Shown here piece by piece: positions 13,242 through 31,378 of a stretch of 64,000 nt of DNA. The DNA comes from Escherichia phage ESCO13: sequence record NC_047770.1, one strand, 5' to 3'. Both the position numbers and the translations under genes were made by a program. Positions within the stretch are counted from its first letter, which is position 1. Each line of letters opens with the position of its first letter. The notes under the pieces are model-generated. The model did not search any database. It had not been told where the DNA came from and was given only the letters and a program-made list of their open reading frames with translations.

Positions 13242-13289
13242 ATCTCCTCCTATAAAGGGGCAGAAGCCCCTTATAAAACAATGAGTTAA

Positions 13290-15887
13290 CTAGTGACAGG
13301 ACGCCCAGGAGTTACCCACATCATATCCGGCAGTAAGCTGAACATTAAGATTGTAAAATTCTCCAGCCTTAGTAACAGCTAAAGCAGCAAGTTCACCTGC
13401 CCGACTATAGGCTGTAAACCATCCACCTTTGGGAGATTCATGAATGTTAGCCCAAATTTGCCCTGTCTCTTTTTCCTTATTATGCTTCCATTCTTCAACT
13501 TTAGCAAGGCATTCTTTATCAATTTTCTTTTGTTCTTCAGGATCGTCTACTTTCTTCCAACCTAATGATTCAGGTGAAAACCATTTGAATTCTACAAGGT
13601 TACGAGAAACTTCAAGCTGGGCTTCATCGTGATATGCAATCATTTGTTGCACGAAGTCTTTATTCTTCCAGTCATCTTTAAAGAAGTCAACACTTAGCCC
13701 TTCTTCTTCGATCATGTCGTCATAAATAACCATTGCACGTTTAGCACAGATAACCCCACCACTTTGGAACAGAGAGTTAAGAATCGCGTGAGCAGAACGA
13801 GTAGGAACCTTACGACCGTCAATACCCAAAACATACTGTTTACCAGTCTTAACCCAGAAATCGTTTAAACGTTCTTTAAGACGCGCCAGTGGGAATGCAG
13901 CTTCCCAGAAAGCATCGAACACCAGTTGCCCTGTGTATTTATCGCTACCAATTGTTTTAGCAACCTTGTCTGCTTGTGCACCATAAGTGATCCCGTATTT
14001 AACAGATTTCGCCGGACTACGTTCAAACTTACGCCCAATAGTATCTGTAATACGTTTTGCCATCATGGTATGAACATCGTTAGGCTTCTCTAACAAGAGA
14101 GCGTTACAGTATTCATGAGGCTCCGGTTCGTAGCGCCAACAATAATGCGACTCAATCTTTGCTTCCAAAGAGTCGAAGTCATAACCGATCTGGAAGTATT
14201 TAGGAACTTCTACACCAAACAAGTTACGCATCTCCCATCCAAACAAAGATGTGACACGAGGGATATTGGCTACAGACCTATGCTTCATACGAGAGGTTGC
14301 AGCATCACATGTAGCGGCTGGTGTAGGAATACGCCCATCCGCCCTTACTGCGGCTAAGAAACCTTTATCGTATTCTTGATCTTCTTCATCTTCTTCCCAA
14401 TCAGCACCGCCACCTAAAATAGAGTTCCTACGATGCTTATACGTTAAGTATTCTACAATCTGAGTAGCATAAGGAAATTTCTCACCCAAAGCTTGCAGGT
14501 TAGGACAGATTTCTTTTTCCTGACCTTTGGTAAAACATGGGTTAGTCAATACTTTAAGACCGCGACCTTTACCTTTTGCTATACGCTCTTGAATCTTCCT
14601 TTCCAAGGTTTCCGGTGTGCACTCCAGATGATCACAACGATCCTGACAAAAATTAGAAGATAGAGTTTGCTCAACGTAAGCTCGAATACCTTTCTGAAGT
14701 TCTTCCTCGCTCTTTTTAATCTTGGTGCCAGATTTAAGAGTCAAGTCTTTATCTTTATATTCAGACGGTACCCAACCTAATCCTACAAGCCAGTTTTTAA
14801 TATGGGTTGTATCGTTCAATGTTGCAGGGATGTTAGGATCACATAGAGGTTCATCTGCTGCAACTGGCAGTTTCCACTCTTTCCCCAACATAACTAACCA
14901 CCAATCGCCATCCCTCTCTTCCAAATGACCATCATGCTTCTTAGCAAAATTGATCATATGGTTAGTTGGCTCTAAGTTCTTTTTAATTTGCAACTTAGGT
15001 GGAATAAAAGCCTTAAGATAGCCTTTTGTTGCTGGTTTAGGTGGCAAAATAGGCTCAACGAGTAAACGAAGACGCTCCATTTCTGCATCCAAAAAAGCAA
15101 GGTTCTCTTCTGCTTGCTTCATGTTAAAAGCAAACCCACGGTGTTCCTGGCGTGTGATAATGTCTGCTACACGTTGTTCAAGTTCAAATGGACCTTCCCA
15201 TTTATCATAATCACCCCATTCTTCCATAAGGTAGTTATATACGCTCGTATTGGCTTTGTTGTCATAGATACAGTAATAAAGCATATCCGCAGCAAAAGTC
15301 TTAAATCGATCTTCTTCTGGAATCTCTTTACGGAAATCTATTTTTACATCACCACCTGCTTTTCGAGAAAGTGCTGCCAAGCTATGTCCTGATTTGCCCT
15401 CAATCTTTCGATCTGGGTTTAACACTTTACTCAAAATCAAGGAGTCAATAAGTTTTACCTTATTTTTGCCCCACGTATTATATTTAACACTGTAATCTAA
15501 TCCATAAAACAGTTTTGTAGCCAACCAGTCGTAGTTGATACCGTTGTGAGCCACAGCCATTTCAACCAGATATTCAGGCTTGTCTTTAAAATAACCTTCA
15601 TGATTAATAAAGTCTGGGAAATCTTTTAGTTGAAAATGCGTGTAATCTTGCGCCACATACTCTTTAAGAACATATGTGTATTTACCATCTGACTCTTCAT
15701 AAGGACGCCCATCAAAGATGTATTTAGGGCCATCGTGGAAAGCTACTATTTCTCCTGTTTCATGGTTCTCTAAGACAATACAGTGCATTTGAAATGTGTC
15801 TTTGAGACGATAAGGACTAGCTAAATAATCAATAGTGTCATTATTCAACAATCCGTTTGCTTCAATATCCCATGTAAACTTACTCAC
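13290..15887 (-). CDS. DNA polymerase, family A, with 3-prime to 5-prime exonuclease domain
   Basis: 865 aa; Exo I WDIEANGL; motif B RSPAKSVKYGITYG (R..AK..YG); motif C HDEAQLEV. Confidence 0.9.
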   Translation of the reverse strand: MSKFTWDIEANGLLNNDTIDYLASPYRLKDTFQMHCIVLENHETGEIVAFHDGPKYIFDGRPYEESDGKYTYVLKEYVAQDYTHFQLKDFPDFINHEGYFKDKPEYLVEMAVAHNGINYDWLATKLFYGLDYSVKYNTWGKNKVKLIDSLILSKVLNPDRKIEGKSGHSLAALSRKAGGDVKIDFRKEIPEEDRFKTFAADMLYYCIYDNKANTSVYNYLMEEWGDYDKWEGPFELEQRVADIITRQEHRGFAFNMKQAEENLAFLDAEMERLRLLVEPILPPKPATKGYLKAFIPPKLQIKKNLEPTNHMINFAKKHDGHLEERDGDWWLVMLGKEWKLPVAADEPLCDPNIPATLNDTTHIKNWLVGLGWVPSEYKDKDLTLKSGTKIKKSEEELQKGIRAYVEQTLSSNFCQDRCDHLECTPETLERKIQERIAKGKGRGLKVLTNPCFTKGQEKEICPNLQALGEKFPYATQIVEYLTYKHRRNSILGGGADWEEDEEDQEYDKGFLAAVRADGRIPTPAATCDAATSRMKHRSVANIPRVTSLFGWEMRNLFGVEVPKYFQIGYDFDSLEAKIESHYCWRYEPEPHEYCNALLLEKPNDVHTMMAKRITDTIGRKFERSPAKSVKYGITYGAQADKVAKTIGSDKYTGQLVFDAFWEAAFPLARLKERLNDFWVKTGKQYVLGIDGRKVPTRSAHAILNSLFQSGGVICAKRAMVIYDDMIEEEGLSVDFFKDDWKNKDFVQQMIAYHDEAQLEVSRNLVEFKWFSPESLGWKKVDDPEEQKKIDKECLAKVEEWKHNKEKETGQIWANIHESPKGGWFTAYSRAGELAALAVTKAGEFYNLNVQLTAGYDVGNSWASCH

Positions 15888-16681
15888 TATTCCTCCTTTC
15901 TAATGTTCTCCAGAACCCACTGAAGTTCTTTTAAACTTAAACTTCTTACTCCCGCAGTTTTACTAGCTTCAGCTTTAAGTAACGGGTAAGCCTCAATGAT
16001 ACGCGTTTTAAGATCAGAAGTCAAGGCTTTTAAAAAATAGGTAGATGCTTCAGATAAAGAATCTTCTTCTGATAACACTTTACCTGCACTTGCTCCCGCT
16101 CTCCTAACGGCTATATCGTAGTCTTTACTGTTACCTAATACGAATAGTCGATTCTCTCCTAAAACAACGGGAGAACGCTTCTCGTTGCGTTTAATCCATA
16201 TCTGGAATACACAAGGAACATCCCAAGGTTCTCCATGAAGAATAAAAGATCCTTTTGGACATTCTTCTTCGTAAAGAAGATGCATGTGGGGATTTAGTTT
16301 GTGTGCAAAAAAGATTTTTTGAAATGTGCGAGGCAAGATAAAACAAATACCACCTTCGTTATCCAACATTTCAGCACAATGGTTAAAGAACTTAATGGCA
16401 AGACTAGCATTTTTTCCAAACGGAGGATTACCGACAAAAGCAGTTACACTACCAACAGACTCTACAGATTGAGCTAAAAAATCTGCCTCAATACAATCTT
16501 CAAACTTAGGATCAATATCAAAAGAAGTTATGTTTTTAAAACAAGAAGAGAAAGCTCCTTCTCCCGCAGATGGTTCTACGTAGTTAGCTTCCTCTCCAAA
16601 AATTTCTTTGATCTTATCACATAAGAACCCCGCATAAGCGGGGTTAGTGTAATATTGATCAAGTGTGTTCAACTTGCTCAA
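15887..16681 (-). CDS. DNA N6-adenine/N4-cytosine methyltransferase (amino-methyltransferase class)
   Basis: 264 aa; SAM motif VEPSAGEGAF followed by catalytic FVGNPPF (NPPF). Confidence 0.75.
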   Translation of the reverse strand: MSKLNTLDQYYTNPAYAGFLCDKIKEIFGEEANYVEPSAGEGAFSSCFKNITSFDIDPKFEDCIEADFLAQSVESVGSVTAFVGNPPFGKNASLAIKFFNHCAEMLDNEGGICFILPRTFQKIFFAHKLNPHMHLLYEEECPKGSFILHGEPWDVPCVFQIWIKRNEKRSPVVLGENRLFVLGNSKDYDIAVRRAGASAGKVLSEEDSLSEASTYFLKALTSDLKTRIIEAYPLLKAEASKTAGVRSLSLKELQWVLENIRKEE

Positions 16682-17214: not shown

Positions 17215-18993
17215 TTAGTAGTTGCTATCCGTAGGCAAATTAGCAGGATTGTTGAAATACTGCTCTTTGTCATGCAGAGTTGCAGTTCTAATGTCATAGT
17301 AAAACTGCCCTGCCGGACCAGTTTCCGAGAACTCACGGTTTTTTAGGATAAAGCAATGAGTCGTATTGCGTTCTACAGGGTCTTCAGCGGCTTTATCTCG
17401 TTCCAAAGCCAAGGTAATACCAGCACCTTTAGCCAAGAAACTACTACCCATTGCATCGTCCTCTGTTAAGTGTTCATTGCCACCATTAGCCGATTTCTTA
17501 ACGTGTGAGATGACGATAATAGTTATAGCATACTCTTTCATGATGCGCTTCAACCATGTTGCTAACTCTTCCTGGGCTTGAACATCCATACCAGAAAGCA
17601 AATCAGAATAAGGGTCGATAACAAGAATTGTTACTCCAAAATAGATGATCATCTCCAAAACTTTTTCTTTGATAGACTCCACATCTGCTCCACGATCATC
17701 ACACACATAAAAACGTGGTGATCCATCTTCTCTTTCGTAAAAATCTAGGATTTTTTCTTTATTCTCTTCCAAGATTTGAAATTTCTCTTCCGGTGTTTTC
17801 CTGTGTAGAGGAATATGCAGGAACGAGGACAACAGGTTACGAGAATACTTCTTATAAGTTGCTTCCAAGGACAGAATGCCTAGGGTATGTTCTGGGTGCG
17901 CAACAATGATATGTTTGGTGATCTCGTTCACCATCAAAGTTTTACCGATACTGGTCTTTGCCAGGATGACTGTAATCTCTTCCTCTACTAAACCACCACC
18001 CAGCATATTTGCAGCAACACGCATAAAAGGAGGCAAGGTAATCATCTTGGATTCCAAGCATTCTAATGCAGCTTCATACAAGACATTAGAAGCATAAACA
18101 CCTGCTGGGGTGTATAGACGAGCACTCCAAAAAGCTTTTACGAAATCTTTTGCACGACCTTCTTCCAGATATTGATTGGCATCCTTAAGATCCATCTGCA
18201 TACGGTAGACTTTGTTACGAGGCAGCACCTTAACAATATTTTCAAATGCCTCATTACCTGCTTTGTCATTATCCATGCAAACAATAATCTTCTTAAATTT
18301 TTCAAAGAAAGGGTATTGTGCCTGAACTTGTTTATACATACTGGTTTCACCAGTTGTGCCACTTACTACGGCTGGAAGCTCATATTTACTGTCCAAGTTT
18401 TCAGATAGCATTTGATAAGCTGCCAGAGCATCGTGTTCACCACCTGTAATTACAACAGTATGAGAACGGTCTGCAAAACGAATTTGTCCAAAAAGATCTA
18501 CATCTTTACCTACTTGACCAATAGGTTTACTGAAATCTTTAGGATGAATACGACGCTTAAAACCAACCAATTCTTTACCGATGGTAGTCGGATATAAACA
18601 ACTTTCTACTACCATCTGATCTCCTTCCTGACGGTATTCATAACGAACACCATAGAAAGATGAAACTTTTTCTTTAATGCCTCGATAACCACGTGGGTTG
18701 GTTGATGTTTCTTGAACAATTTTACGATGAATCTGTTTATTAAATTCCGAACCCACAATCTCCTCCTCTTCTTCTAAAACTTCACCATTTTCTCGTAACC
18801 ATTCTACGCTAGGAATAGTGTATTCACACGCAAAGCACTTAGCACCTTTATGCTCTCCATTAGAATCTAATCCGTAAACCATCAGGTTATTACGAGAGCG
18901 ATCCTTGCCATTTTTCATGCAGCGCGGACAACCTGTATGTCCTTCCTTGCTAAGATCAACATCAAATCCATATTTAGTTATAATGTGCGACAC
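17215..18993 (-). CDS. primase-helicase (T7 gp4-like)
   Basis: 592 aa; N-terminal zinc ribbon CPRC...CFAC, TOPRIM-like middle, DnaB-type Walker A AKTSIGKT. Confidence 0.85.
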   Translation of the reverse strand: MSHIITKYGFDVDLSKEGHTGCPRCMKNGKDRSRNNLMVYGLDSNGEHKGAKCFACEYTIPSVEWLRENGEVLEEEEEIVGSEFNKQIHRKIVQETSTNPRGYRGIKEKVSSFYGVRYEYRQEGDQMVVESCLYPTTIGKELVGFKRRIHPKDFSKPIGQVGKDVDLFGQIRFADRSHTVVITGGEHDALAAYQMLSENLDSKYELPAVVSGTTGETSMYKQVQAQYPFFEKFKKIIVCMDNDKAGNEAFENIVKVLPRNKVYRMQMDLKDANQYLEEGRAKDFVKAFWSARLYTPAGVYASNVLYEAALECLESKMITLPPFMRVAANMLGGGLVEEEITVILAKTSIGKTLMVNEITKHIIVAHPEHTLGILSLEATYKKYSRNLLSSFLHIPLHRKTPEEKFQILEENKEKILDFYEREDGSPRFYVCDDRGADVESIKEKVLEMIIYFGVTILVIDPYSDLLSGMDVQAQEELATWLKRIMKEYAITIIVISHVKKSANGGNEHLTEDDAMGSSFLAKGAGITLALERDKAAEDPVERNTTHCFILKNREFSETGPAGQFYYDIRTATLHDKEQYFNNPANLPTDSNY

Positions 18994-19005
18994 TTTGTTC
19001 TCCTG

Positions 19006-19284
19006 TTAAAATGGTTCGTTAGTCTCCATCATATATTCTGCTTCTAGTTCTTCCATGTGCTTTCTAAATTGGAAAGCAATTTCTGCTACAGTTACATTTA
19101 AATCTTTTTCAAAAACTTCTGTAGATCCTTCATAAAAACGAATACCGTCAATTAAAAGCCCTCCGTGGTAATCCCAATCGCTTTCACGAGAAAGTGGATT
19201 AGGTTCTTCATAATAGTAATCCACCTCCACGACCAAGGCTTTCCCGTTACGAGTGGTGTATTCAAAATCAAAAGTGTTAATCAT
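19006..19284 (-). CDS. hypothetical protein
   Basis: 92-aa ORF; ATGA-type overlap with the downstream gene. Confidence 0.5.
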   Translation of the reverse strand: MINTFDFEYTTRNGKALVVEVDYYYEEPNPLSRESDWDYHGGLLIDGIRFYEGSTEVFEKDLNVTVAEIAFQFRKHMEELEAEYMMETNEPF

Positions 19285-20228
19285 TATAGCTCCTCAAATA
19301 AAAGTCTACGACGCTCATTCAACACATCAATGTGATAATGAGTCCTGACATACTTAGCTAATGCTAATCCTTTCTCCATGCAAACATCGGGAGCACTTAA
19401 TAAGTATTCCGTAATATCTTTCCACTCGGAAGGTGTTTCAGCAAAGAATAACAAATCTTTAAACTCTTGTGTATGATAATTCTCACGAGGAGAGCAGATT
19501 AAAGGTAAACCCTTAGCACCTGCCTCAAGAATTTTAAGATTGCTTTTTGCATTATTAAACACGTTATCGACCAATGGTGCAAGACTGATTTGATGACCAT
19601 CGTAAGATTCCATGTAGTTGGCATATGGTCTTACACCTTCATAAACACTAGTTGGTGCTACATTTTCTCTAATTACAGACCATTCACGACTACTTAAAAC
19701 TTCAGAATCCCTACGAAAACCACATATTGTAAGATCTTTACCAAAATCGGGCAAGATAGCCAAATCTTGTTTATGTGTTTCACTTCCAGCCCAGACTAAT
19801 GGAGTTTTGGAGTAGCGATCACGGGTCAACACAAATTGACCTTCATCGTAAGGAAGTCCATTAGGGATTATGTGCACATTATCATTGTATTGTGAAAGTT
19901 CAACTTGCAAAGCAGGTGTCGTAGTTGTAACAAGATCACTGTGCTCTAAAAACCATTTTAAATGTTCACGAATACCTGATTCAAAAATACCTTCTAACAT
20001 GTGTCCTTTTGGAATAACTAAAGAGTCATCCAAATCCATAACCATTTTAAAGCCCAGGTTTTTAAGGGCTAAAAAGCCCTCTTTACCTTTTGTTGGCACT
20101 CCGTTAAAAACGAAAACGTTGTATTTAGGTTGTGAAGAGAACTGCCTTGAGTAAGGCAGCACTACCCTATGGAAATCGCAGACACTATAATTGATTCCGT
20201 TACGATTGTCAAGAATTATTTGTCCCAT
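19284..20228 (-). CDS. putative glycosyltransferase (paralog 1)
   Basis: 314 aa; shares CD(F/Y)HR(V/I)V(L/I)P(Y/F) and NLKILEAGAKG(L/I)P(L/I)(I/V)CS with the next gene; E-x7-E-like region typical of GT-B enzymes. Confidence 0.55.
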   Translation of the reverse strand: MGQIILDNRNGINYSVCDFHRVVLPYSRQFSSQPKYNVFVFNGVPTKGKEGFLALKNLGFKMVMDLDDSLVIPKGHMLEGIFESGIREHLKWFLEHSDLVTTTTPALQVELSQYNDNVHIIPNGLPYDEGQFVLTRDRYSKTPLVWAGSETHKQDLAILPDFGKDLTICGFRRDSEVLSSREWSVIRENVAPTSVYEGVRPYANYMESYDGHQISLAPLVDNVFNNAKSNLKILEAGAKGLPLICSPRENYHTQEFKDLLFFAETPSEWKDITEYLLSAPDVCMEKGLALAKYVRTHYHIDVLNERRRLLFEEL

Positions 20229-20235
20229 ACTTCAC

Positions 20236-21183
20236 CTACAAACTTTCAATAACCTGGCGTCGCAATTCGTTTGCATCTGCCAGATTATAATGTGTTCGAA
20301 CATGTTCCGCTAAGAACAAGCCACGATCTTCCCGATAGTTCGGATTGCGAAGAAGCTTAACAATTTCGTAATGCCATTCTGCTTTATTCTCTGCGTAAGC
20401 AACAGCGCGAGCATCTACAGGGTTAAAATAAGGTAATATCTTAGAACAAACAATTGGAATACCTTTTGCCCCAGCTTCCAAGATTTTGAGATTACTTTTA
20501 CAATTATTAAAATCGTTATCTACCAGAGGAGCTATAGCAATAGCATGACCCTCGTAAACACTCATGTAATTATCTAAATCTTTTACAGCGGCTTTATATT
20601 TAGCATTTGGTAAATTTCTGCGAATCTTAATCCACTCTTGTCCCGTGATGCTCTGTGATGCCTCATATCCCGCAATAGTAAGAAGTTCATCGTCGAAAGT
20701 ATTAGAGACTAGTCGTAAGTCGGGTTCGTGACTAGCACCGCCAGCCCATACGACAGGGGTACCGGATGAACGATCATTTGACAAAGTGAATTGTCCGCTA
20801 TCAAAAGGAAGTGCATTTCGGATCACAACAACATTCCTATTTAAGTGACGGATCTTATATGCCAAGTATTCCGTAGTCACAATGACCACATCAGCAAGCT
20901 TAACCATAGCTACAATAGAATGGGTGTTTGACTCGTATAGACTTGCTAAATAATGTTCTGGATTAAGTTGGTAGAAATCATCTAAATCTACAACAATCTT
21001 AACACCTTGACGTTTCAGGGACAGAACATATTCTGCCCCTTTAGAATGAATACGGTTAAACACGACAACATCTTTCTTAGGCTGAAAATTATTGTTGTTA
21101 AATGGTATAACAATACGATGATAATCACAACCACTGTGAGGTTTTGCATCAATTTTCAGTTTAGTCCATTTTTTATTTGACAT
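20236..21183 (-). CDS. putative glycosyltransferase (paralog 2)
   Basis: Start moved to the ATG at 21183 (MSNKKWTK; RBS GAGGAGG upstream; 315 aa, matching the 314-aa paralog). Confidence 0.55.
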   Translation of the reverse strand: MSNKKWTKLKIDAKPHSGCDYHRIVIPFNNNNFQPKKDVVVFNRIHSKGAEYVLSLKRQGVKIVVDLDDFYQLNPEHYLASLYESNTHSIVAMVKLADVVIVTTEYLAYKIRHLNRNVVVIRNALPFDSGQFTLSNDRSSGTPVVWAGGASHEPDLRLVSNTFDDELLTIAGYEASQSITGQEWIKIRRNLPNAKYKAAVKDLDNYMSVYEGHAIAIAPLVDNDFNNCKSNLKILEAGAKGIPIVCSKILPYFNPVDARAVAYAENKAEWHYEIVKLLRNPNYREDRGLFLAEHVRTHYNLADANELRRQVIESL

Positions 21184-21856
21184 GTGCCAGTGCCTCCTCA
21201 TAAGAAATTCGGATTTTCCCATTTTTAATATCTTCTAAAGACGCTTTATATTCTTCCCAGTTAATGCCAATAGCAGCTTCTTTCTCTTCTTTTGTCAGAT
21301 TAGCAAAAGGCATAGGATTGTTTCCAAAAACATCGTCTGGGTGGATATAAGCCATGATACGAAGTGGACAAGGTATTGCCTGAATGCCCTGATTCAAACC
21401 AGCAGCTTTCAAACGGTGTACCCATTCAGCATCTTCAAAACCATAGCCGTGAGTGTAAGGGCGGAAATAACCCATCTTCTCAACAACGGCACGAGAATAC
21501 ATTGCAAATTGACACATTGCAAGTTCCCAGAGAATAACTTCTCCTTTACTCCCAACAACTTTATCTTTGAAATACTCCGGCATACCAAAGAAATCCCATC
21601 CTCCAGAGACAGCTTGATCTACAAAATATGTTTCCCATCCCTCCATGATTGGGTAGCAATCGTCGTCAAAAATAAACCAATAATCATAACCTTCTTCATA
21701 AAACTGGTGCATAAGTTCATTCCTGGCGTAAGCTACACCTTTACGATCTGGATCGTTGAATACTCGAAAATCTGCATGTGGATCTGTTACAAGATAGTCT
21801 TTAAGTGGACGGACACCTACAGTGATAACACCCACTCCGATTTTAATATTTTCCAT
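21173..21856 (-). CDS. GT-A fold glycosyltransferase (DxD type)
   Basis: 227 aa; WFIFDDDCYP (DxD) and GYGFEDAEW motifs. Confidence 0.55.
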   Translation of the reverse strand: MENIKIGVGVITVGVRPLKDYLVTDPHADFRVFNDPDRKGVAYARNELMHQFYEEGYDYWFIFDDDCYPIMEGWETYFVDQAVSGGWDFFGMPEYFKDKVVGSKGEVILWELAMCQFAMYSRAVVEKMGYFRPYTHGYGFEDAEWVHRLKAAGLNQGIQAIPCPLRIMAYIHPDDVFGNNPMPFANLTKEEKEAAIGINWEEYKASLEDIKNGKIRISYEEALAHVK

Positions 21857-21864
21857 TTTCTCTC

Positions 21865-22428
21865 CTAGATAGTTTTACTGTGATCGTGACAGTGTAATAA
21901 ATGATGTATAGACCGTTGAGGATTTGTTTGACCTAATCTGTAAATGTGAAACAGATACATTCCCCGCATCAATCCTAACCTTTTTCCTTTTTCATGTAAA
22001 GTGCGAGAGAAAATTAGGTCGAATTGGATAGATTTTTCTTCGAAAGGAATTTCATTCCACAATGATTTTCTAAAAAGCAAAAAGAAACCTGCCAGAGGTG
22101 TTCCGAAAGGAACTTCTTCAACACTCACTTTATGATATTCTCTTGCAATCTTAGCATATTCTATATGGTTTAGAATATTTGGATCATCGTTAATTTGGTT
22201 AGAGAAAAGCTGATAACCACTACCTAACCTGTTACAAGTTGCACCTATTACATCAAAAGGCGGGTTTGACATAATAAGCTCTTCAAGCATAGATGGTTGA
22301 TCAGGCAGGAGGAACATTGTATCGGTATCTCTTAAGCACACCCAACTATCATCTGGAAGAACGGCAATAGCTTCATTGATAGCCTTGCCGATATTTCCTG
22401 TCAGATAGGGAGTAATATAATAAATCAT
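21865..22428 (-). CDS. putative glycosyltransferase-like protein
   Basis: 187 aa; LRDTDTMF DxD-like motif; fourth member of the tandem block. Confidence 0.4.
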   Translation of the reverse strand: MIYYITPYLTGNIGKAINEAIAVLPDDSWVCLRDTDTMFLLPDQPSMLEELIMSNPPFDVIGATCNRLGSGYQLFSNQINDDPNILNHIEYAKIAREYHKVSVEEVPFGTPLAGFFLLFRKSLWNEIPFEEKSIQFDLIFSRTLHEKGKRLGLMRGMYLFHIYRLGQTNPQRSIHHLLHCHDHSKTI

Positions 22429-22445
22429 TCTCCCCCTCCGTTATA

Positions 22446-22637
22446 TTAACTGTCAGCTACAATCCCACGTTTAATCATTTCTTGTTGGATTTGGATGACA
22501 CGATCTCGTGCTTCCATATATTCTTTAAAAGATTCTTGGAGATGGTCACGAGCTACATCCCGTAGTTTAATCAGCTTGTCGTTTGTCACTTCTTGAAGAG
22601 AGATCTCGCCAGTTTCATTGGTCCCAAGCGTTTTCAT
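22446..22637 (-). CDS. hypothetical protein
   Basis: 63-aa ORF. Confidence 0.45.
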   Translation of the reverse strand: MKTLGTNETGEISLQEVTNDKLIKLRDVARDHLQESFKEYMEARDRVIQIQQEMIKRGIVADS

Positions 22638-22845
22638 TTACAACCTCCTTAATAGCTACTGCACAGTTCTTACAAATACATTGACCTTTGTTCTTAGAAA
22701 TTTCAATGTAAGGTTCATTTTCGTTTTCTCCGCGTCGTGAATCGTATATTACAGTATTGAAGCAGACAACGCAAATGTTTTTAATAACAACATATTTTTG
22801 CACTTTTTGTTTAGTGCGAAAATTTACTTCAATGACTTCTCCCAT
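22615..22845 (-). CDS. small Cys-rich protein
   Basis: Start moved to MGEVIEV (ATG at 22845, TGATG overlap with the upstream stop, RBS GGGGAG); CVVC...CKNC. Confidence 0.45.
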   Translation of the reverse strand: MGEVIEVNFRTKQKVQKYVVIKNICVVCFNTVIYDSRRGENENEPYIEISKNKGQCICKNCAVAIKEVVNENAWDQ

Positions 22846-23129
22846 CAGTGAATCTCCCCTAAAATGTTGTTTTGAGACATTACTGCGGAGCATTCTACAG
22901 CATCATGAGTCCTTGCAAAACGCTCCCACAGCACAGCATCTACTTTAAGAACCATACAAGGATAAATACTGTCGTTGATCATATCAATGCTATATTTATC
23001 TACATCCTTTTCATCTTCCATAAACAAAGTAGCGTATGCTTCCAAATGTTTACGGGTGTAGTATACGTCCTCTTCGGTAAGACCGACAACCAGGTAACTT
23101 GCTACAACAACAGTATTATCTTCTTGCAT
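22845..23129 (-). CDS. hypothetical protein
   Basis: Start moved to MQEDNTVVV (ATG at 23129) to remove the overlap with the upstream hydrolase gene. Confidence 0.45.
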   Translation of the reverse strand: MQEDNTVVVASYLVVGLTEEDVYYTRKHLEAYATLFMEDEKDVDKYSIDMINDSIYPCMVLKVDAVLWERFARTHDAVECSAVMSQNNILGEIH

Positions 23130-23130: not shown

Positions 23131-23652
23131 TTAACTCCCCTTTGGTAGATAGAAACCATGCACTTTATCTCGATAAACAAGACGCATATCACGCTCCCAG
23201 TGTGTCCTTATATTCCGTTTCTTGAAGTATAGAGCACCTTTAGTAACATCTAAAACAGACCGCAATTCAGGAAAATGTTTCTCTAAATAAAGTAAACGCT
23301 CCGCTATTGCTTTTGCTTCCTGCCACTTATCTTTCTCTGTCACGTTAAAAGTTTTCGCATATGAGAATTGCCCTTTCTGGAACAAGACTCCCTTGACTGT
23401 GTTAGGGAAGTAGGCATCATTTCTTCTGTTGATTACCACATTCCCAACGGCATTCATTCCTTTTTTACCCAGACCGCGACCTTCTGCGTAAATTGCACAA
23501 GCTAATAGAATTTTATCATTATATTGCTTTGTACATTTGTGAACTACTTTAGCGGTTTTTACGTTTGCAGCTTCGGCTTTCGCCACAACAGGTGTAAATG
23601 TAAAAGCAGTTAAGGATAGTAACGCAACTGTTACAAAGTTTTTTATCAGCAA
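23131..23652 (-). CDS. secreted cell-wall hydrolase (SleB/Hydrolase_2-like)
   Basis: 173 aa; signal peptide MLIKNFVTVALLSLTAFTFTPVVAKA; AIYAEGRGLG...GMNAVGNVVINR motif; TTG start after RBS AAGGAGG. Confidence 0.65.
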   Translation of the reverse strand: MLIKNFVTVALLSLTAFTFTPVVAKAEAANVKTAKVVHKCTKQYNDKILLACAIYAEGRGLGKKGMNAVGNVVINRRNDAYFPNTVKGVLFQKGQFSYAKTFNVTEKDKWQEAKAIAERLLYLEKHFPELRSVLDVTKGALYFKKRNIRTHWERDMRLVYRDKVHGFYLPKGS

Positions 23653-23752: not shown

Positions 23753-24355
23753 TTATGGACATTCATACCATTCTTTTTTACCACCGAAGGCCATCACCAC
23801 ATCGCAAATATCCAGACCAGCTTTACCTACACCATATGCTTTCAGCTTCCATTCTCCATCTTCACGAACCAGGGAAGCCACGTGGCAGATTGTGTTGCCA
23901 GCTACTTCAGGAGCCAGGAAGTCAAAATCCAGAATTTCCACATTGCGCTCGGAGTCGAAGATTTTAAGCATACCTTCAGAAGCATGACCAAAACGTTTCA
24001 GACCTGTATCATCATCAATGGTCAGAACAAAGGCAATCTCTTGTGCATCAGGAGAGATTTTAGCCAGAGTAATATCAATCTGCTCCATGCTGCCAGTTCC
24101 ATCACGAACATCGTCACCAGCGAAGGTAGAACGTTCAGGATCAAACTTGTTAGCATAGCAAACCAGATGACGTGCAGATAGCATTTCAGGATTGCCAGCG
24201 GCATTGTGACGACAAACCAGTGCACTTACATCCAGATCCAGTTTAGAATCAGATTTCCAAGAGAATTCCAGACGCAGTTCTTTCAGAGCCGGAGCAACTT
24301 TCTTCAGGGAAATTTTTTCGCTAGAACCTTTTTTCAGGGAAATTTTATCAGTCAT
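23753..24355 (-). CDS. terD: TerD-family stress protein
   Basis: 200 aa; N-terminal doubled ISLKK motif, DLDVSA, GDDVRDGTG, FVLTIDD and GEWKLKAYG segments follow the TerD domain pattern. Confidence 0.75.
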   Translation of the reverse strand: MTDKISLKKGSSEKISLKKVAPALKELRLEFSWKSDSKLDLDVSALVCRHNAAGNPEMLSARHLVCYANKFDPERSTFAGDDVRDGTGSMEQIDITLAKISPDAQEIAFVLTIDDDTGLKRFGHASEGMLKIFDSERNVEILDFDFLAPEVAGNTICHVASLVREDGEWKLKAYGVGKAGLDICDVVMAFGGKKEWYECP

Positions 24356-24370
24356 CTTTTGTCTCCTCTA

Positions 24371-24640
24371 TTATTTAAGTGTAATACCAGTTACAGTCAA
24401 TTCTACTTCCAAAAGCTTAGATGTGTTTTGGATTGATACTAATTGTGCATGATGGTTTAGTTCTACAGCAGAATAATCATTTTCCCCATCATCTACTTTT
24501 AAATAAACAATGATTTCACTAAGGTCTAAACCATTTTCGTCAAATGCATTTTCATAGACGAAAGTATCTCCTACATCCAAATCTTTAATGGTAAGGCATC
24601 GTTTATTTACTTTTTGCTCATCAATTTCGAAGTTTAACAC
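24371..24640 (-). CDS. hypothetical protein (paralog of 25662-25940)
   Basis: 89 aa; shares DLDVGxTF.Y..A..E.GLD and (V/L)E(V/L)TVTGITLK-type C-terminus with the paralog. Confidence 0.5.
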   Translation of the reverse strand: MLNFEIDEQKVNKRCLTIKDLDVGDTFVYENAFDENGLDLSEIIVYLKVDDGENDYSAVELNHHAQLVSIQNTSKLLEVELTVTGITLK

Positions 24641-24869
24641 TTCTTCCTCCTAATGTTATCTCCGGTTTGTATATACGAAGAATTATAGCATTTTCATTTT
24701 CTTTGTCAACCCATTCTTCATAATCAGGCCATACATGAATCTCTACTCTACTTACAATATCTTCCATTCGCACAGTCCCAATGAAATACTCTTTGAGACT
24801 GCGCATAATGAAAGCTTCTCTCTCGCGCCAATAATTTTCTATGACTTGAGAGGCAAGCTCGTCGATCAT
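24621..24869 (-). CDS. hypothetical protein
   Basis: 82-aa ORF; ATGA-type overlap with the upstream gene. Confidence 0.5.
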   Translation of the reverse strand: MIDELASQVIENYWREREAFIMRSLKEYFIGTVRMEDIVSRVEIHVWPDYEEWVDKENENAIILRIYKPEITLGGRSVKLRN

Positions 24870-25660
24870 TTTTTAGCACCTACTTTAACAACCCACTCTC
24901 CGAACTCTTCAGATAAGAGTTTGTCATAAAGCTCTGAATCTGTCAAGTCTAAATCTTTAATGCCAATAAAACCAACATTATCATAAGCATTTGCCAGTTC
25001 TTTCAGGAAGCCAAACTTCTCATTACCAACGCCAACCATGAACCAATAAATAGGTTTATTCTTATTCTCTTCAATAAGACGACGAACAGCACTAGGATCA
25101 CCATTCTCACCATCCGTCTGGAAGAATACAACACCAGGGGTAACGTCAGCACCTGGTTCAGACACAGCTACAACCTTTTCACGCTCTACAGATACTGTTT
25201 CAGTTTTACCAAGCAGACGATTAAAGAAGCCTTTCTTTGGAGCCTCCTCTTGTACCACTTGTTTAGTGGTAATATATTTGGTAACAGTGCCAAAATACTC
25301 ATCGTAGATATCTGCCATTACAGGGGCGTAATTTGTTCCACCTCCGATACGAACATTACGCATACATTTACCAACATAGTCATCGTAAACGTCTGCTGTT
25401 GCTGGAGTAAGCTCTTGGGAACTCGTATTGAAGGCCCACATATCAATTTGTTGATTATCGTCGAACAGCATACCAAAAGGAAGCAGTTTACCTACAAAAT
25501 CACTCACTACCCCACTAGAATATAGACCATGCATACTACCAGAAATATCTAGAGCACATGCTACACGAAGAACAATCTTACCTTCATTCAGGTTCTTATT
25601 CTTTTTCAGAGAGAAAGCAAGGTTTTCTTGACGTTTTTTCAGGCTGATTTTCTCGGACAT
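24866..25660 (-). CDS. vWA-domain protein (TerY-like)
   Basis: 264 aa; MIDAS motif ALDISGSM; N-terminus MSEKISLKK echoes the TerD N-terminus. Confidence 0.65.
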   Translation of the reverse strand: MSEKISLKKRQENLAFSLKKNKNLNEGKIVLRVACALDISGSMHGLYSSGVVSDFVGKLLPFGMLFDDNQQIDMWAFNTSSQELTPATADVYDDYVGKCMRNVRIGGGTNYAPVMADIYDEYFGTVTKYITTKQVVQEEAPKKGFFNRLLGKTETVSVEREKVVAVSEPGADVTPGVVFFQTDGENGDPSAVRRLIEENKNKPIYWFMVGVGNEKFGFLKELANAYDNVGFIGIKDLDLTDSELYDKLLSEEFGEWVVKVGAKK

Positions 25661-25661
25661 A

Positions 25662-25940
25662 TTATTTCTCCTTCTTAAGTGTAATATTGGTAACTTCTAA
25701 ATCTACTTCCACCATATTTGTATCTGGTGGGATGCAATGAGTATAGCCTCGTTGTGCTAGTGATCCATTAATACAAATCGCACTGTTTGTGGAATTTTTA
25801 ATGAACACCAAGTTACGGTAGGTATCCAACCCTGCGTCTTCATAGGCATCATAATACATGAATGTGGCCCCTACGTCAAGATCTTCGAAAGCAATAGGTA
25901 AATCCTGACTTTTTTCTTCTTGAATATTGAATCTAAACAC
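25662..25940 (-). CDS. hypothetical protein (paralog of 24371-24640)
   Basis: Probable GTG start at 25940 after RBS GAGGAGG; the track ATG at 26006 would overlap the upstream gene by 74 nt. Confidence 0.45.
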   Translation of the reverse strand: MFRFNIQEEKSQDLPIAFEDLDVGATFMYYDAYEDAGLDTYRNLVFIKNSTNSAICINGSLAQRGYTHCIPPDTNMVEVDLEVTNITLKKEK

Positions 25941-26496
25941 GCATACCTCCTCTACCAATTTTGAAGCCCAAATCGTAAGCTTCCTTAGTGATCTTTTGTA
26001 ACTCACTTATAGGAAGTGTTACAAGAGGATCATCTTCTTCAATTTCCATCTTGTCATCTTCTGTTTCAATGAGAGTATTATGCACTTTGTGATAAGGGTT
26101 GTCAACACGTTTAAACTTATTCTTTTCTGTGCTGAAAAAACAATCTGGATCTTCTTCGCCATCACCCCAACCTTGGTTAGGATCTCCGTCAGATTGTTCT
26201 GTAGGGATTTCACCTGTAAAATACTCTTCCAGCACCATAGCGATACCATCCCTTGGATTCGAGGAATGCATTAAATCACAAACCTTACCCCAATCCATAG
26301 CCCATTCGAACCGTTCACGAACGCCATTTTCATCCTCCTTTCCAGAGAAAACACAACCATAACTATCATAGTTGCCATACATCTCTTCAATAACAACACC
26401 GTCCTTCAAAAGAAAGAGATAACAAGGTGATCCGTCGAAAGAAGTAGAAAGGGCAGCTTTGCCCGATTCTTTGCACAAAAAGCTAAAACAACCCAT
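25933..26496 (-). CDS. hypothetical acidic protein
   Basis: 187-aa ORF. Confidence 0.5.
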   Translation of the reverse strand: MGCFSFLCKESGKAALSTSFDGSPCYLFLLKDGVVIEEMYGNYDSYGCVFSGKEDENGVRERFEWAMDWGKVCDLMHSSNPRDGIAMVLEEYFTGEIPTEQSDGDPNQGWGDGEEDPDCFFSTEKNKFKRVDNPYHKVHNTLIETEDDKMEIEEDDPLVTLPISELQKITKEAYDLGFKIGRGGMRV

Positions 26497-26699
26497 TACA
26501 AACCCTCCTTCAGATTATCAAGAGCTACAGTGGTTTCACAAAATTCTCCATAAGCTTTATGATGTTCCAGAAAAGCTTCGGGTCCACCCCAATCATTGTC
26601 TTGTGTATTCCAGCCATCAATAAAAGCATCTTCAATGATTGTGATCAGTTCTTGTCGGGTTAACTGGATAATATTAGGGTCGTTATCGTAGTTAAACAT
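26496..26699 (-). CDS. hypothetical protein
   Basis: 67-aa ORF. Confidence 0.5.
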   Translation of the reverse strand: MFNYDNDPNIIQLTRQELITIIEDAFIDGWNTQDNDWGGPEAFLEHHKAYGEFCETTVALDNLKEGL

Positions 26700-26865
26700 C
26701 CTCTTCCTCCTCTAAAATATGGAACCCGTAATTACAATAGTCCTGAAAGGTTTCGTGTGCAAGATCTTCTATATCCTCTTGAGACATATCATCTTCAATT
26801 TCGATATCCACAACCTCATTGCATCCACACCAAGCAGTTTCAATATTCACTCGTAATATTTTCAT
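26692..26865 (-). CDS. small hypothetical protein (below the ORF-track cutoff)
   Basis: 57-aa ORF MKILRVNIETAWCGCNEVV...; TAATG overlap with the upstream stop, RBS GAGGAG, 8-nt overlap with the next gene. Confidence 0.35.
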   Translation of the reverse strand: MKILRVNIETAWCGCNEVVDIEIEDDMSQEDIEDLAHETFQDYCNYGFHILEEEEDV

Positions 26866-27065
26866 TACTCCTCCTCCTCCTCATTGAAGTCAATATCTGC
26901 AAGGAGTTCGAATTTACGGAAGTTACGACAACCTTCATAAATATAACAATCACGACAAACTGCTAGAACACTTGGGGGATATATGCCTCCCATCGGCGCG
27001 AATCGTTTTTCGTCATCATAACGGACACCAATGTCCTCATCAATTATATAGATACGGATTCTCAT
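26865..27065 (-). CDS. hypothetical protein
   Basis: 66 aa; ATGA overlap with the TelA-like gene. Confidence 0.5.
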   Translation of the reverse strand: MRIRIYIIDEDIGVRYDDEKRFAPMGGIYPPSVLAVCRDCYIYEGCRNFRKFELLADIDFNEEEEE

Positions 27066-28761: not shown

Positions 28762-28764
28762 AAC

Positions 28765-29358: not shown

Positions 29359-29372
29359 TGTTTTTCTCCTTA

Positions 29373-29810: not shown

Positions 29811-29997
29811 ATTTGCTTTCCTCGTTTTGGCTATTAATACATCTGTGTTTGAAATCTCCAGAGAAGCAATAAAGTTGCTCTCCATCTCGGTATAAACTCA
29901 CTTTACTGCCGTTGATTACGCTTGTCAATACAAAAATTACAACAAACAACCCTATTGCAAAACAAATATTTTCAAACACAACCAACAAGTATTTCAT
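29752..29997 (-). CDS. small membrane protein
   Basis: 81 aa; N-terminal TM helix; ATGA overlap with the upstream gene; 3-prime end overlaps the lipoprotein start. Confidence 0.4.
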   Translation of the reverse strand: MKYLLVVFENICFAIGLFVVIFVLTSVINGSKVSLYRDGEQLYCFSGDFKHRCINSQNEESKYEKTSPDFNWLYLFNSLRG

Positions 29998-31361: not shown

Positions 31362-31378
31362 TCTTTTCTCCTCTCTTT

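What the first reader, a model, noticed from the sequence alone, without database searches (positions are those of the whole stretch)
19284..22428. Four tandem putative glycosyltransferases embedded in the replication module
Two paralogous ~315-aa proteins, a GT-A DxD protein (FIFDDD, GYGFEDAEW) and a fourth DxD-like protein lie between the primase-helicase and the methyltransferase/polymerase genes. Glycosyltransferases inside a replisome operon are the signature of DNA base hypermodification (sugar transfer to hydroxymethylated pyrimidines), an anti-restriction strategy; no hydroxymethylase is visible in this window, so the substrate is unknown. Alternatives are virion protein glycosylation or host envelope modification.
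Basis: inference. Interest (0 to 1): 0.6.

Follow-up and report, generated by a model that had tools for sequence, protein, structure and literature searches.

The report
Four phage glycosyltransferases, acceptor unknown
This E. coli phage carries four real sugar-transferring enzymes next to its DNA-replication genes, but published restriction data and the gene content argue against T4-style sugar-coating of its DNA, so the target of the sugars, possibly the virus particle's own proteins, is still unknown.

Summary
The window is a Phapecoctavirus (phAPEC8-like E. coli myophage), 99.5% identical here to phage nieznany. The four minus-strand genes at 19284-22428 are real glycosyltransferases: two GT-B paralogues (42% identical) and two GT-A enzymes with conserved DxD motifs. 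RefSeq already labels them glycosyltransferases. Relatives encode a complete dTDP-L-rhamnose pathway outside the window, and it co-distributes with the cluster. Rhamnosylation of hydroxymethylated bases was proposed in 2020. Four results disfavour bulk DNA hypermodification. No hydroxymethylase, TET/JBP oxygenase or C5-methylase was found in the whole reference genome. HincII cuts Phapecoctavirus DNA while T-even DNA resists. Phi92-like phages with the orthologous cluster are "exceptionally susceptible" to restriction systems. The GT-A fails the TAGT threshold. The GT-A/GT-B pair is a mobile cassette found in many small phages. There it lies beside terminase and capsid genes with sugar acyl- and methyl-transferases, and only rarely beside Tet_JBP or TAGT genes. 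Best guess (about 0.35): a phage-autonomous assembly line putting a rhamnose-containing glycan on phage (virion) proteins. Sparse DNA glycosylation remains possible (about 0.2). The genes and the hypothesis are already known; the acceptor is an open, testable question.

The parts
21865..22428 (-). GT4: 187-aa minimal GT-A glycosyltransferase (RDTDT = DxD). It has no Pfam family. Its own family has 977 representatives at E<=1e-3.
   Evidence: phrog_14179, E 1.3e-112. D34/D36 are nearly invariant. The AlphaFold model has pLDDT 90. Foldseek against PDB finds the LH3 GT domain, LARGE1, ppGalNAc-T2, Listeria RmlT and TarP. Family size. Relatives are fused to TOD1_MUCI70, GT2 and Methyltransf_24 domains.
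21173..21856 (-). GT3: 227-aa GT-A glycosyltransferase with invariant R45, DDD64-66 and E141-D142.
   Evidence: phrog_2456, E 2.9e-79. Only weak local Pfam hits: TAGT 19.2 bits against a cut-off of 27.5, Glyco_transf_7C, GT2. Invariant residues. Model pLDDT 82. GT-A fold matches are STIV A197, B4GALNT1, ColGalT1 and LH3. In BFVD the best matches are GT2/GT25-like phage and giant-virus enzymes, with TAGT only at rank 35.
20236..21183 (-). GT2: 315-aa GT-B glycosyltransferase. This is the paralogue closest to the copies found in other phages. The ORF extends to 21222, but 21183 has the Shine-Dalgarno sequence.
   Evidence: phrog_7162, E 2.5e-149. Glyco_trans_1_4 and Glyco_trans_1_2 are below threshold. 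It is 43-51% identical to the prophage copies, against 36-39% for GT1. Start site.
19284..20228 (-). GT1: 314-aa GT-B glycosyltransferase, a diverged duplicate of GT2 found only in Stephanstirmvirinae-like phages.
   Evidence: phrog_7162, E 9.8e-145. PF13524 scores 24.9 bits against a cut-off of 25. It is 41.9% identical to GT2. The family profile hits GT4-family GT-B structures: TreT at E 1e-4, BshA, MshA. Nine residues are invariant across both paralogue lineages.
19006..19284 (-). Conserved acidic 92-aa protein (pI 4.2). Its start overlaps the GT1 stop codon by 1 nt. Function unknown; it travels with the cluster in relatives.
   Evidence: phrog_4240, E 6e-33. It is conserved downstream of the GT block in L005, L006 and L010. 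pI.
22446..22893 (-). Two small conserved ORFs directly upstream: a 63-aa ORF and a 76/92-aa Cys-rich ORF. They probably belong to the same transcription unit.
   Evidence: phrog_5932 and phrog_15360. They are conserved upstream of GT4 in L005, L006 and L010.
17215..18993 (-). Context: primase-helicase directly downstream. It is followed by a 143-aa ORF, the N6-adenine methyltransferase (15887-16681) and PolA (13290-15887).
   Evidence: ORFs, RefSeq annotation. The orthologue carries Toprim_2 and DnaB_C domains.

Best explanation
Shown, confidence about 0.85. The locus is a co-transcribed set of four soluble glycosyltransferases: GT4 and GT3 have the GT-A fold with DxD motifs, and GT2 and GT1 have the GT-B fold. 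It is a core, syntenic feature of Stephanstirmvirinae.

Inferred. These enzymes act in sequence, each adding one sugar. They use host UDP-sugars plus dTDP-L-rhamnose made by the phage's own RmlABCD, which is encoded about 70 kb away outside the window. The product would be a short rhamnose-containing oligosaccharide.

Inferred, and the weakest step (confidence about 0.35, which is the figure given for this explanation as a whole). The acceptor is not bulk DNA. It is a phage-made protein, most likely a virion component such as capsid, decoration, tail or fibre protein. The particle would then be glycosylated independently of the host's glycosylation genes, as in mycobacteriophages and chloroviruses.

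On this reading the position beside the replisome genes is inherited synteny, not a functional link to DNA.
For: Fold and motifs support the enzymatic identity. The genes are tightly packed, with gaps of 7-8 nt or overlaps. None has a transmembrane segment.

RmlB, RmlA, RmlC and RmlD of the 99.5%-identical phage nieznany all exceed the NCBIfam equivalog cut-offs. RmlC and the GT-B have matching distributions in phage genomes: 63 records at >=95% identity for both, and 65 and 66 records at 60-80%. The divergent Klebsiella phage 05F01 has both.

Nothing that could make an acceptor on DNA was found in the whole genome. DNA of near-identical and orthologous phages is cut by HincII and by cellular restriction systems.

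The GT3-GT2 pair, sometimes with GT4, is a mobile cassette. It occurs in small HK97-like and P22-like phages and prophages of Serratia, Pseudomonas, Chitinophaga and others that show no nucleotide-metabolism genes. Of 40 GT-B lineages, 23 keep the GT-A partner and 23 have the large terminase subunit within 10 genes. One lineage has the GT-B directly upstream of the scaffold and major-capsid genes.

The neighbours include glycan-tailoring enzymes: a hexapeptide acyltransferase, and Methyltransf_24, TylF and RMNT_CmcI-like sugar O-methyltransferases. GT4-domain relatives are fused to further GT and methyltransferase domains. From my own knowledge, that architecture resembles the multi-domain chlorovirus capsid-glycan enzyme A064R.

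The best fold matches of both GT-A enzymes are protein-glycosylating enzymes and giant-virus GTs: ColGalT1, LH3, ppGalNAc-T, Mimivirus R699. TarP, which Pyle et al. report as the top PDB hit of the DNA GT-As, is not a top hit here.
Against: No tool result or paper read here shows a glycan on any Stephanstirmvirinae protein.

In this phage the genes sit with early/middle replication genes, not with late structural genes.

A position next to the terminase is also typical of DNA-modification genes. In a few small phages the GT-B homologue lies in a hot spot that also holds Tet_JBP, TAGT, C5-methylase, ParB, Mom or N6-methylase genes. O'Toole et al. 2026 report GTs, ParB, terminases and O-methyltransferases as the commonest neighbours of phage 5mYOX genes.

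The fold matches are generic, with TM-scores of 0.4-0.5.

A cassette that moves between unrelated phages needs a portable acceptor. DNA fits that requirement more simply than a particular protein does.
Confidence: 0.35

Rival explanations
1. DNA hypermodification. The GTs would transfer rhamnose and other sugars to a hydroxylated or hydroxymethylated pyrimidine in phage DNA. Given the restriction data, this could only occur at sparse or sequence-specific sites. The acceptor would have to be made by an oxygenase or hydroxymethylase that current profiles do not recognise.
For: Synteny with the primase-helicase and PolA is conserved down to about 50% identity. The rml genes sit among RNR, ThyX-like and glutaredoxin genes.

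GT3 carries R...DDD...ED motifs like those Pyle et al. describe for DNA GT-As, and has weak local hits to TAGT and to the T6-type glucosyl-HMC glucosyltransferase PHROG. The GT-B profile hits BshA and MshA, as the DNA GT-Bs of that study do.

GT-B homologues lie within a few genes of Tet_JBP (L106, L061), true TAGT (L088, L058) and C5-methylase genes in some small phages. The hypothesis is published. Most of the 150-kb genome has no assigned function.
Against: The complete genome has no ThyA-type hydroxymethylase, Tet_JBP or recognisable C5-methylase. The ThyX-like gene is shared with more than 1000 phages that lack the GTs.

GT3 is below the TAGT gathering score. TAGT ranks only 35th in BFVD. 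TAGT seeds do not recruit the GT3 family in jackhmmer. The GT-Bs have no hit to the T4 alpha- or beta-GT families at E<=1.

Tet_JBP accompanies the cassette in only 2 of about 100 loci.
Confidence: 0.22
2. Modification of a host envelope glycoconjugate (LPS core, ECA, O-antigen or capsule precursors) during infection or lysogeny. The purpose would be superinfection exclusion, or preventing progeny from sticking to debris. It is analogous to the prophage-encoded TarP or to serotype-converting GTs.
For: These phages use ECA and the LPS core as receptors. In prophages the cassette sits in the classical 'moron' site between the lysis and terminase genes. GT4 has fold matches to the wall-teichoic-acid GTs RmlT and TarP. 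The GT-B family resembles GT4-family enzymes that act on lipid-linked acceptors, such as PglA.
Against: The proteins are soluble, with no GtrA/B/C-type membrane components. The same cassette occurs in phages of Proteobacteria, Bacteroidota and a Firmicute, which have very different envelopes. That argues against a host-specific acceptor. The phage is strictly lytic, and the genes are in an operon with replication genes.
Confidence: 0.1
3. Glycosylation of another target: a host protein (takeover or counter-defence), tRNA, or a small molecule. The small molecule could be a product of the neighbouring Ter-associated PRTase/HAD/Macro module.
For: The Ter cluster and the PRTase_3, HAD and Macro genes lie upstream of the GT cluster (the nearest, TerD, about 1.3 kb away; the PRTase/HAD/Macro genes about 9-12 kb away). 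TerC, TelA, vWA-TerF-like and TerD remain syntenic with the GT cluster in relatives of about 50% identity. The phage encodes tRNAs.
Against: The small-phage cassettes have no Ter, PRTase or tRNA genes nearby. There is no positive evidence.
Confidence: 0.08

Closest known systems
T-even phage DNA glucosyltransferases (T4 alpha-GT and beta-GT; T2/T6 beta-glucosyl-HMC alpha-glucosyltransferase, a TAGT-family GT-A)
   Same: They are phage-encoded soluble GT-B and GT-A enzymes, expressed with replication and nucleotide-metabolism genes and using nucleotide sugars. There is weak local similarity around the DxD motif of GT3.
   Different: No dCMP hydroxymethylase or dCTPase system is present. Neither GT-B hits the T4 alpha- or beta-GT families. 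TAGT is below threshold. The DNA of relatives is cut by HincII and by cellular restriction systems. Four GTs plus a rhamnose pathway take the place of one or two glucosyltransferases.
5mYOX (TET/JBP)-dependent phage DNA glycosylation gene clusters (Burke 2021; Pyle 2023; O'Toole 2026)
   Same: They combine GT-A (R...DDD...ED) and GT-B (BshA/MshA-like) enzymes, often beside terminase, ParB and O-methyltransferase genes. A few distant GT-B homologues sit next to Tet_JBP or TAGT.
   Different: The defining oxygenase is absent from the window and from the whole reference genome, as is the C5-methylase where one is needed. Both are also absent from most loci that hold the cassette.
Virion glycosylation by phage- or virus-encoded GTs (mycobacteriophage Che8-type, Freeman 2023; chlorovirus PBCV-1 A064R with virus-encoded sugar-nucleotide enzymes). 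Cited from my own knowledge.
   Same: The virus carries its own GT set and, in this phage, its own NDP-sugar supply. Rhamnose and sugar O-methylation recur as themes. In many small phages the cassette lies next to head and packaging genes.
   Different: No glycoprotein has been shown for any Stephanstirmvirinae. The GT families are different. In this phage the genes lie in the replication region. The host is Gram-negative, and no case of virion glycosylation in such a phage is known to me.
Prophage-encoded cell-envelope GTs (S. aureus TarP; Gtr serotype-conversion systems)
   Same: They are phage-borne GT-A enzymes that act on hydroxyl groups of surface polymers. TarP and RmlT are among the fold matches of GT4.
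   Different: The phage is lytic. No membrane components are present. The cassette is spread across hosts with unrelated envelopes.

Membership tests
GT-A fold glycosyltransferases | Rossmann-like GT-A fold with a DxD metal- and nucleotide-sugar-binding motif | tested here: met
   GT3: pLDDT 82, with Foldseek hits only to GT-A enzymes and DDD64-66 invariant. GT4: pLDDT 90, GT-A hits, and D34-x-D36 nearly invariant.
GT-B fold, GT4-like (Pfam Glyco_trans_1_2 / Glyco_trans_1_4) | Score at or above the Pfam gathering threshold, or profile similarity to solved GT4-family structures | tested here: inconclusive
   The window proteins are just below threshold: GT1 scores 24.9 bits on PF13524 against a cut-off of 25, and GT2 scores 20.7 bits on PF13692 against a cut-off of 27 (19.4 on PF13524). 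Many homologues carry a precomputed PF13524 hit, and a 44%-identical prophage copy passes PF13692. The family profile hits TreT at E 1e-4, plus BshA and MshA. No structure was predicted for the GT-B proteins.
T4 DNA alpha-/beta-glucosyltransferases | Sequence membership in the T4 alpha-GT or beta-GT families | tested here: not met
   Neither family appears in the Pfam scan of GT1 and GT2 at E<=1. Neither appears among the PDB sequence or profile hits.
T4-type DNA hypermodification pathway | An enzyme that makes the acceptor base (ThyA-like dCMP or dUMP hydroxymethylase/hydroxylase) encoded by the phage | tested here: not met
   None is annotated in the 254 CDS of the 99.5%-identical genome. 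There is no Thymidylat_synt hit among the candidates scanned. jackhmmer from a ThyA seed finds nothing in the window or the genome. The ThyX-like gene scores 31 bits against a cut-off of 88 and is shared with more than 1000 phages that lack the GTs.
T4-type DNA hypermodification pathway | Virion DNA refractory to restriction enzymes and to cellular restriction-modification systems | not testable with these tools
   Published experiments point the other way. HincII cut all Phapecoctavirus and Justusliebigvirus isolates, while the three Tevenvirinae were uncut (PMC10269720). Phi92-like phages are exceptionally susceptible to restriction systems (PMC8594841).
TAGT (TET-associated glycosyltransferase, PF20691) | Score at or above the gathering threshold of 27.5 bits | tested here: not met
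   GT3 scores 19.2 bits, E 1.3e-3, over 36 residues only. True TAGTs found in other loci score 43-129 bits and do not recruit the GT3 family in jackhmmer. In BFVD a TAGT protein is only rank 35.
TAGT / 5mYOX DNA-glycosylation gene clusters | Co-occurrence with a TET/JBP (5mYOX) dioxygenase | tested here: not met
   There is no Tet_JBP hit among the larger hypothetical proteins. jackhmmer from Tet_JBP seeds (L106, L061) finds no relative in any ORF of 80 aa or more in the window or the nieznany genome. Highly divergent oxygenases cannot be excluded.
dTDP-L-rhamnose pathway (RmlA, B, C, D) as donor supply | All four enzymes present and above equivalog thresholds | tested here: met
   This holds for the relative's genome only: RmlB 431 bits (cut-off 365), RmlA 464 (361), RmlC 225 (156), RmlD 237 (224). 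The genes are not in this window.
Phage virion-glycosylation systems | Glycan covalently attached to capsid or tail proteins | not testable with these tools
   This needs glycoprotein staining or mass spectrometry of purified virions. No report was found in the papers read.
Phage virion-glycosylation systems | GT genes located within or next to the structural or packaging module | tested here: inconclusive
   Not so in this window, where the cluster lies next to the primase-helicase. It is so for homologous cassettes: the large terminase subunit lies within 10 genes in 23 of 40 lineages, and one lineage has the GT-B directly upstream of the scaffold and capsid genes.
Gtr-type serotype-conversion systems | Membrane-embedded GtrA flippase, GtrB and a specific GtrC | tested here: not met
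   No hydrophobic segment passes a transmembrane-like level: the maximum 19-residue Kyte-Doolittle mean is 1.65 or less. There are no Gtr family hits.

The most novel reading that the evidence does not exclude
The phage puts rhamnose-containing glycans on its DNA at sparse, sequence-specific sites. It would do so through a route that does not use any recognised hydroxymethylase or TET/JBP enzyme, that is, a new acceptor-generating enzyme or a new linkage chemistry. Such a modification could escape the restriction tests done so far. It might serve something other than anti-restriction, such as packaging, partitioning, or evasion of other defences.
Probability: 0.1. Interest if true: 0.85.

Novelty: new member of a known kind. 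Interest (0 to 1): 0.45.

Why it matters
Phapecoctavirus and phi92-like phages are abundant, broad-host-range coliphages that are often proposed for therapy and biocontrol. They spend eight genes, four GTs and four Rml enzymes, on a glycan whose target nobody has identified. At least three papers mention the puzzle.

If the target is the virion, this would be, to my knowledge, the first glycosylated phage of a Gram-negative host. That would bear on immune recognition, serum stability and pharmacokinetics of therapeutic phages.

If the target is DNA, it would be a sugar modification without the known precursor enzymes.

The comparative result here reframes the question. The GT-A/GT-B pair is a widespread mobile cassette, with at least 558 relatives in IMG/VR and 40 lineages among those sampled. 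It usually lies next to packaging genes and only rarely next to Tet_JBP or TAGT genes. This also gives small, tractable phages in which to test the function.

Tried and rejected
1. Sequence searches of all four proteins, and of their family profiles, against PDB chains gave nothing for the GT-A enzymes and only weak GT4-family hits for the GT-B profile.

2. NCBIfam gave no family for any of the four proteins.

3. The AFDB50 fold library was not available. The comparison with trypanosome JGT used by Pyle et al. could therefore not be repeated.

4. I looked for a hidden acceptor-making enzyme. Pfam on about 20 larger hypothetical proteins of the reference genome found none. The protein annotated 'Dcm', gp068, has no Pfam hit, and the 'DNA methyltransferase' gp247 is an XkdF-like protease. 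jackhmmer from Tet_JBP, TAGT, ThyA and C5-methylase seeds recovered from other loci was also negative.

5. I considered the ThyX-like protein (THR in place of the RHR motif, 31 bits) as a possible hydroxymethylase. I rejected it as a specific partner because the same family is in 1033 phage genomes, including rV5-, ICP1- and N4-like phages without the GTs.

6. The promoter and terminator scan shows no convincing internal signals. There are 32 promoter-like sites against 21 expected by chance, and no minus-strand terminator inside the cluster.

7. Papers on BME3, the O177 phages, the Durham collection and END nucleases held no data on Stephanstirmvirinae DNA or virion glycans. The phi92 genome and structure paper is not held in the library.

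8. Isoelectric points (GT2 8.5, the others 4.9-6.1) were computed as a crude test for DNA binding and were uninformative.

Full report
**Identity of the window**

Bases 19000-22900 match 69 phage genomes. The best match is Escherichia phage nieznany at 99.5% identity (Phapecoctavirus, Stephanstirmvirinae). The window corresponds to roughly 113 kb down to 50.7 kb of that 145-kb genome. RefSeq already annotates the four genes as "glycosyltransferase".

**The observation**

Four tightly packed minus-strand ORFs occupy 22428-19284. I call them GT4 (187 aa), GT3 (227 aa), GT2 (315 aa) and GT1 (314 aa), in the order of transcription.

- GT2 probably starts at 21183, where GGAGG lies 9 nt upstream.
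- GT1 and GT2 are paralogues: 41.9% identity, E 8e-79.
- All four hit PHROG families annotated as glycosyltransferase, at E 1e-79 to 1e-149.
- Pfam is much weaker. GT1 and GT2 fall just below threshold for GT-B families (Glyco_trans_1_2 and Glyco_trans_1_4). GT3 has only short sub-threshold hits around its DxD motif (TAGT, Glyco_transf_7C, GT2). GT4 has nothing.
- Alignments of homologues show invariant R45, D64-D66 and E141-D142 in GT3, and a nearly invariant D34-x-D36 in GT4.
- The AlphaFold models (pLDDT 82 and 90) match only GT-A glycosyltransferases in PDB.
- The GT-B family profile weakly matches GT4-family structures such as TreT, BshA and MshA.

One positional detail is wrong. The cluster lies upstream of the primase-helicase, not between it and the methyltransferase and polymerase. 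A 92-aa acidic ORF separates GT1 from the primase-helicase. On the other side of the cluster are three small ORFs, a signal-peptide SleB-like hydrolase and a TerD/vWA/TelA/TerC cluster.

**Donor supply**

The relative's genome encodes RmlB, RmlA, RmlC and RmlD, all above NCBIfam equivalog cut-offs. These genes are outside the window. RmlC and the GT-B have matching distributions among 50,697 phage records:

| Identity band | RmlC records | GT-B records |
|---|---|---|
| >=95% | 63 | 63 |
| 60-80% | 65 | 66 |

The more divergent Klebsiella phage 05F01 has both. A rhamnose-containing product is therefore likely, though it is inferred.

**Is the acceptor DNA?**

Olsen et al. 2020 proposed that these phages use rhamnose to glycosylate hydroxymethylated nucleotides. 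Four lines of evidence argue against a T4-like, genome-wide modification.

1. Every known sugar modification of DNA needs a hydroxylated or hydroxymethylated base. No ThyA-type hydroxymethylase, Tet_JBP oxygenase or recognisable C5-methylase is found:
   - none is annotated in the whole genome;
   - Pfam finds none among the larger hypothetical proteins;
   - jackhmmer from ThyA, Tet_JBP and C5-methylase seeds recovered from other loci finds none among all ORFs of 80 aa or more.

   The ThyX-like gene is a common phage family present in 1033 genomes that lack the GTs.
2. There is experimental evidence from near-identical phages. HincII produced RFLP patterns for all isolates except three Tevenvirinae. 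The digested isolates included five Phapecoctavirus, among them ESCO25, which is 99.0% identical across this cluster, and three phi92-like phages.
3. The phi92-like BASEL phages carry the orthologous cluster at 71% identity, plus the rml genes. They are described as "exceptionally susceptible" to restriction-modification systems "despite a putative dTDP glycosylation machinery". A later paper repeats this doubt.
4. GT3 is not a TAGT:
   - it scores 19.2 bits against a cut-off of 27.5;
   - true TAGTs from other loci do not recruit its family in jackhmmer;
   - a TAGT protein ranks only 35th among viral fold matches.

   GT1 and GT2 show no hit to the T4 alpha- or beta-GT families.

**Comparative context**

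The block GT4-GT3-GT2-GT1-p92-primase-PolA is conserved in metagenomic relatives at about 50% identity.

The cassette also occurs outside this phage group.

- A Serratia sp. M24T3 HK97-like prophage carries GT4-GT3-GT2 (40%, 37% and 51% identity) between its lysis genes and its HNH, terminase and capsid genes.
- Pseudomonas prophages carry GT3-GT2 directly before a metallopeptidase and the small and large terminase subunits.
- A P22-like contig carries GT2 and GT3 homologues between the terminase and portal genes.
- IMG/VR holds at least 558 relatives of the GT-B.

I called and clustered ORFs in 104 loci. The GT-B proteins fall into 40 lineages at 60% identity.

| Feature near the GT-B | Lineages (of 40) |
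|---|---|
| GT3-like GT-A adjacent | 23 |
| Large terminase subunit within 10 genes | 23 |
| Hexapeptide acyltransferase nearby | 9 |
| Sugar-type methyltransferase (Methyltransf_24, TylF, RMNT_CmcI-like, Methyltransf_23) nearby | 7 |
| Stephanstirmvirinae-like primase context | 7 |

In one lineage the GT-B lies directly upstream of the genes I read as scaffold and major capsid protein; that reading rests on their position and sequence, since Pfam gave no hit and PHROGs only a family of unknown function.

The GT4 domain family has 977 representatives at E<=1e-3 among 1.84 billion proteins. It is often fused to TOD1_MUCI70, GT2 and Methyltransf_24 domains. This marks it as a module of multi-step glycan synthesis.

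**The counter-current**

The stretch upstream of the small terminase subunit in the small phages is also a hot spot for DNA-modification genes. At one variable position next to the GT-B, different phages carry Mom, a ParB-N6-methylase fusion, a true TAGT or a Tet_JBP oxygenase. Some carry a C5-methylase or a ThyA homologue.

O'Toole et al. 2026 report GTs, ParB, terminases, endonucleases and O-methyltransferases as the commonest neighbours of phage 5mYOX genes. Pyle et al. 2023 describe DNA GT-As with R...DDD...ED motifs and DNA GT-Bs resembling BshA and MshA. These are features that GT3 and the GT-B family share in a generic way.

Genomic context therefore does not cleanly separate a DNA acceptor from a virion-protein acceptor. 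Tet_JBP accompanies the cassette in only 2 of about 100 loci, so the cassette does not generally depend on it. However, true TAGTs also occur without a detectable oxygenase (L058, L088), so absence of detection is imperfect evidence.

**Weighing the explanations**

- High confidence (about 0.85): these are four active glycosyltransferases forming one conserved operon, functionally tied to a phage-encoded dTDP-rhamnose supply.
- The acceptor is unresolved.
- I rank a phage, probably virion, protein first (about 0.35). The reasons are the lack of any acceptor-making enzyme for DNA, the restriction data, the predominance of packaging and head neighbourhoods with glycan-tailoring enzymes, and fold matches that favour protein-glycosylating and giant-virus GTs over TarP and JGT-type enzymes.
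- Sparse or sequence-specific DNA glycosylation through an unrecognised enzyme is second (about 0.22).
- Modification of the host envelope is less likely (about 0.1). The cassette spans hosts with unrelated envelopes, and the proteins are soluble.
- Other targets (host proteins, tRNA, a small molecule): about 0.08.

**Novelty**

The genes, their annotation and the DNA-rhamnosylation hypothesis are already public. What this analysis adds:

- a demonstration that GT4 is a Pfam-unrecognised GT-A;
- the finding that the cluster is a derivative of a widespread mobile GT-A/GT-B cassette;
- the specific negative tests against membership of the T4-type and TAGT/5mYOX systems.

The finding is a new member of a known kind, a phage-encoded glycan-building cassette, with an open and directly testable acceptor question.

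Noticed in passing
window 23753-34244, minus strand: A Ter-type cluster lies next to a small biosynthetic module. The Ter genes are TerD (23753-24355), vWA-TerF-like (24866-25660), TelA (27062-28174), a SprT-like protein (28171-28761) and TerC (about 30386-31360). The module is a Macro domain (about 31674-32147), a ComF-like PRTase_3 (about 32161-32988), a HAD hydrolase (about 32981-33637) and a 201-aa unknown protein. From my own knowledge, this resembles the Ter-associated 'nucleoside-like metabolite' neighbourhoods predicted by Anantharaman et al. 2012. TerC, TelA, vWA-TerF-like and TerD stay syntenic with the GT cluster in relatives of about 50% identity.
   Followed up: partly
window 13254-15887, minus strand: The PolA ORF is 865 aa here but is annotated as 1189 aa in phage nieznany. 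Window 13254-13992 has no BLASTN match in nieznany, which has about 2.3 kb at that place. This suggests an in-frame insertion (intein or homing element) in the relative, or its loss here.
   Followed up: no
window 23131-23652, minus strand: A SleB-like cell-wall hydrolase (Hydrolase_2) with an N-terminal signal or SAR-like sequence lies three small ORFs upstream of GT4. This adjacency is kept in distant relatives. In small phages the GT cassette also tends to lie next to lysis genes.
   Followed up: no
L058 3055-3771; L066, L102; L106 7139-8826; L061 15716-16513; L088 1398-2222: In related small metagenomic phages, one position between the HNH/ParB genes and the GT-B is occupied by different genes in different phages: Mom, a ParB-N6-methylase fusion, a true TAGT, or a Tet_JBP oxygenase preceded by a 300-aa unknown protein. 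This is a variable DNA-modification hot spot just upstream of the small terminase subunit.
   Followed up: partly
proteins P0086, P0096, P0100-P0102, P0112, P0145, P0192, P0210 (not in the window): The GT4-type minimal GT-A domain has no Pfam model of its own. It is frequently the C-terminal domain of 390-650-aa proteins whose other domains are TOD1_MUCI70, GT2 or Methyltransf_24. Some proteins carry two copies of it.
   Followed up: partly
L002 12853-13851 (phage nieznany gp030, outside the window): The 'FAD-dependent thymidylate synthase' is a divergent ThyX-like protein. It scores 31 bits against a cut-off of 88 and has THR where ThyX has the RHR motif. The same family is shared by 1033 phage genomes, including rV5-, ICP1-, Pakpunavirus- and N4-like phages.
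   Followed up: partly
window about 34900-39000, minus strand (nieznany gp166-gp170): The anaerobic ribonucleotide reductase large subunit is annotated in several separate pieces with intervening ORFs. This suggests intron or homing-element interruptions.
   Followed up: no
public records matching window 19000-22900: Records named Campylobacter phage B15, Acinetobacter phage vB_AbaM_ABPW7, Klebsiella phage ZCKP1 and a Pseudomonas phage are 97-99% identical to this coliphage region. The host labels of some deposited Phapecoctavirus genomes look doubtful.
   Followed up: no
L002 33128-33811 and L004 25982-26461 (phage nieznany gp068 and gp247): Two RefSeq 'DNA methyltransferase' annotations are not supported. 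gp068 ('Dcm') has no Pfam or NCBIfam hit. gp247 matches the XkdF-like prohead protease family.
   Followed up: partly
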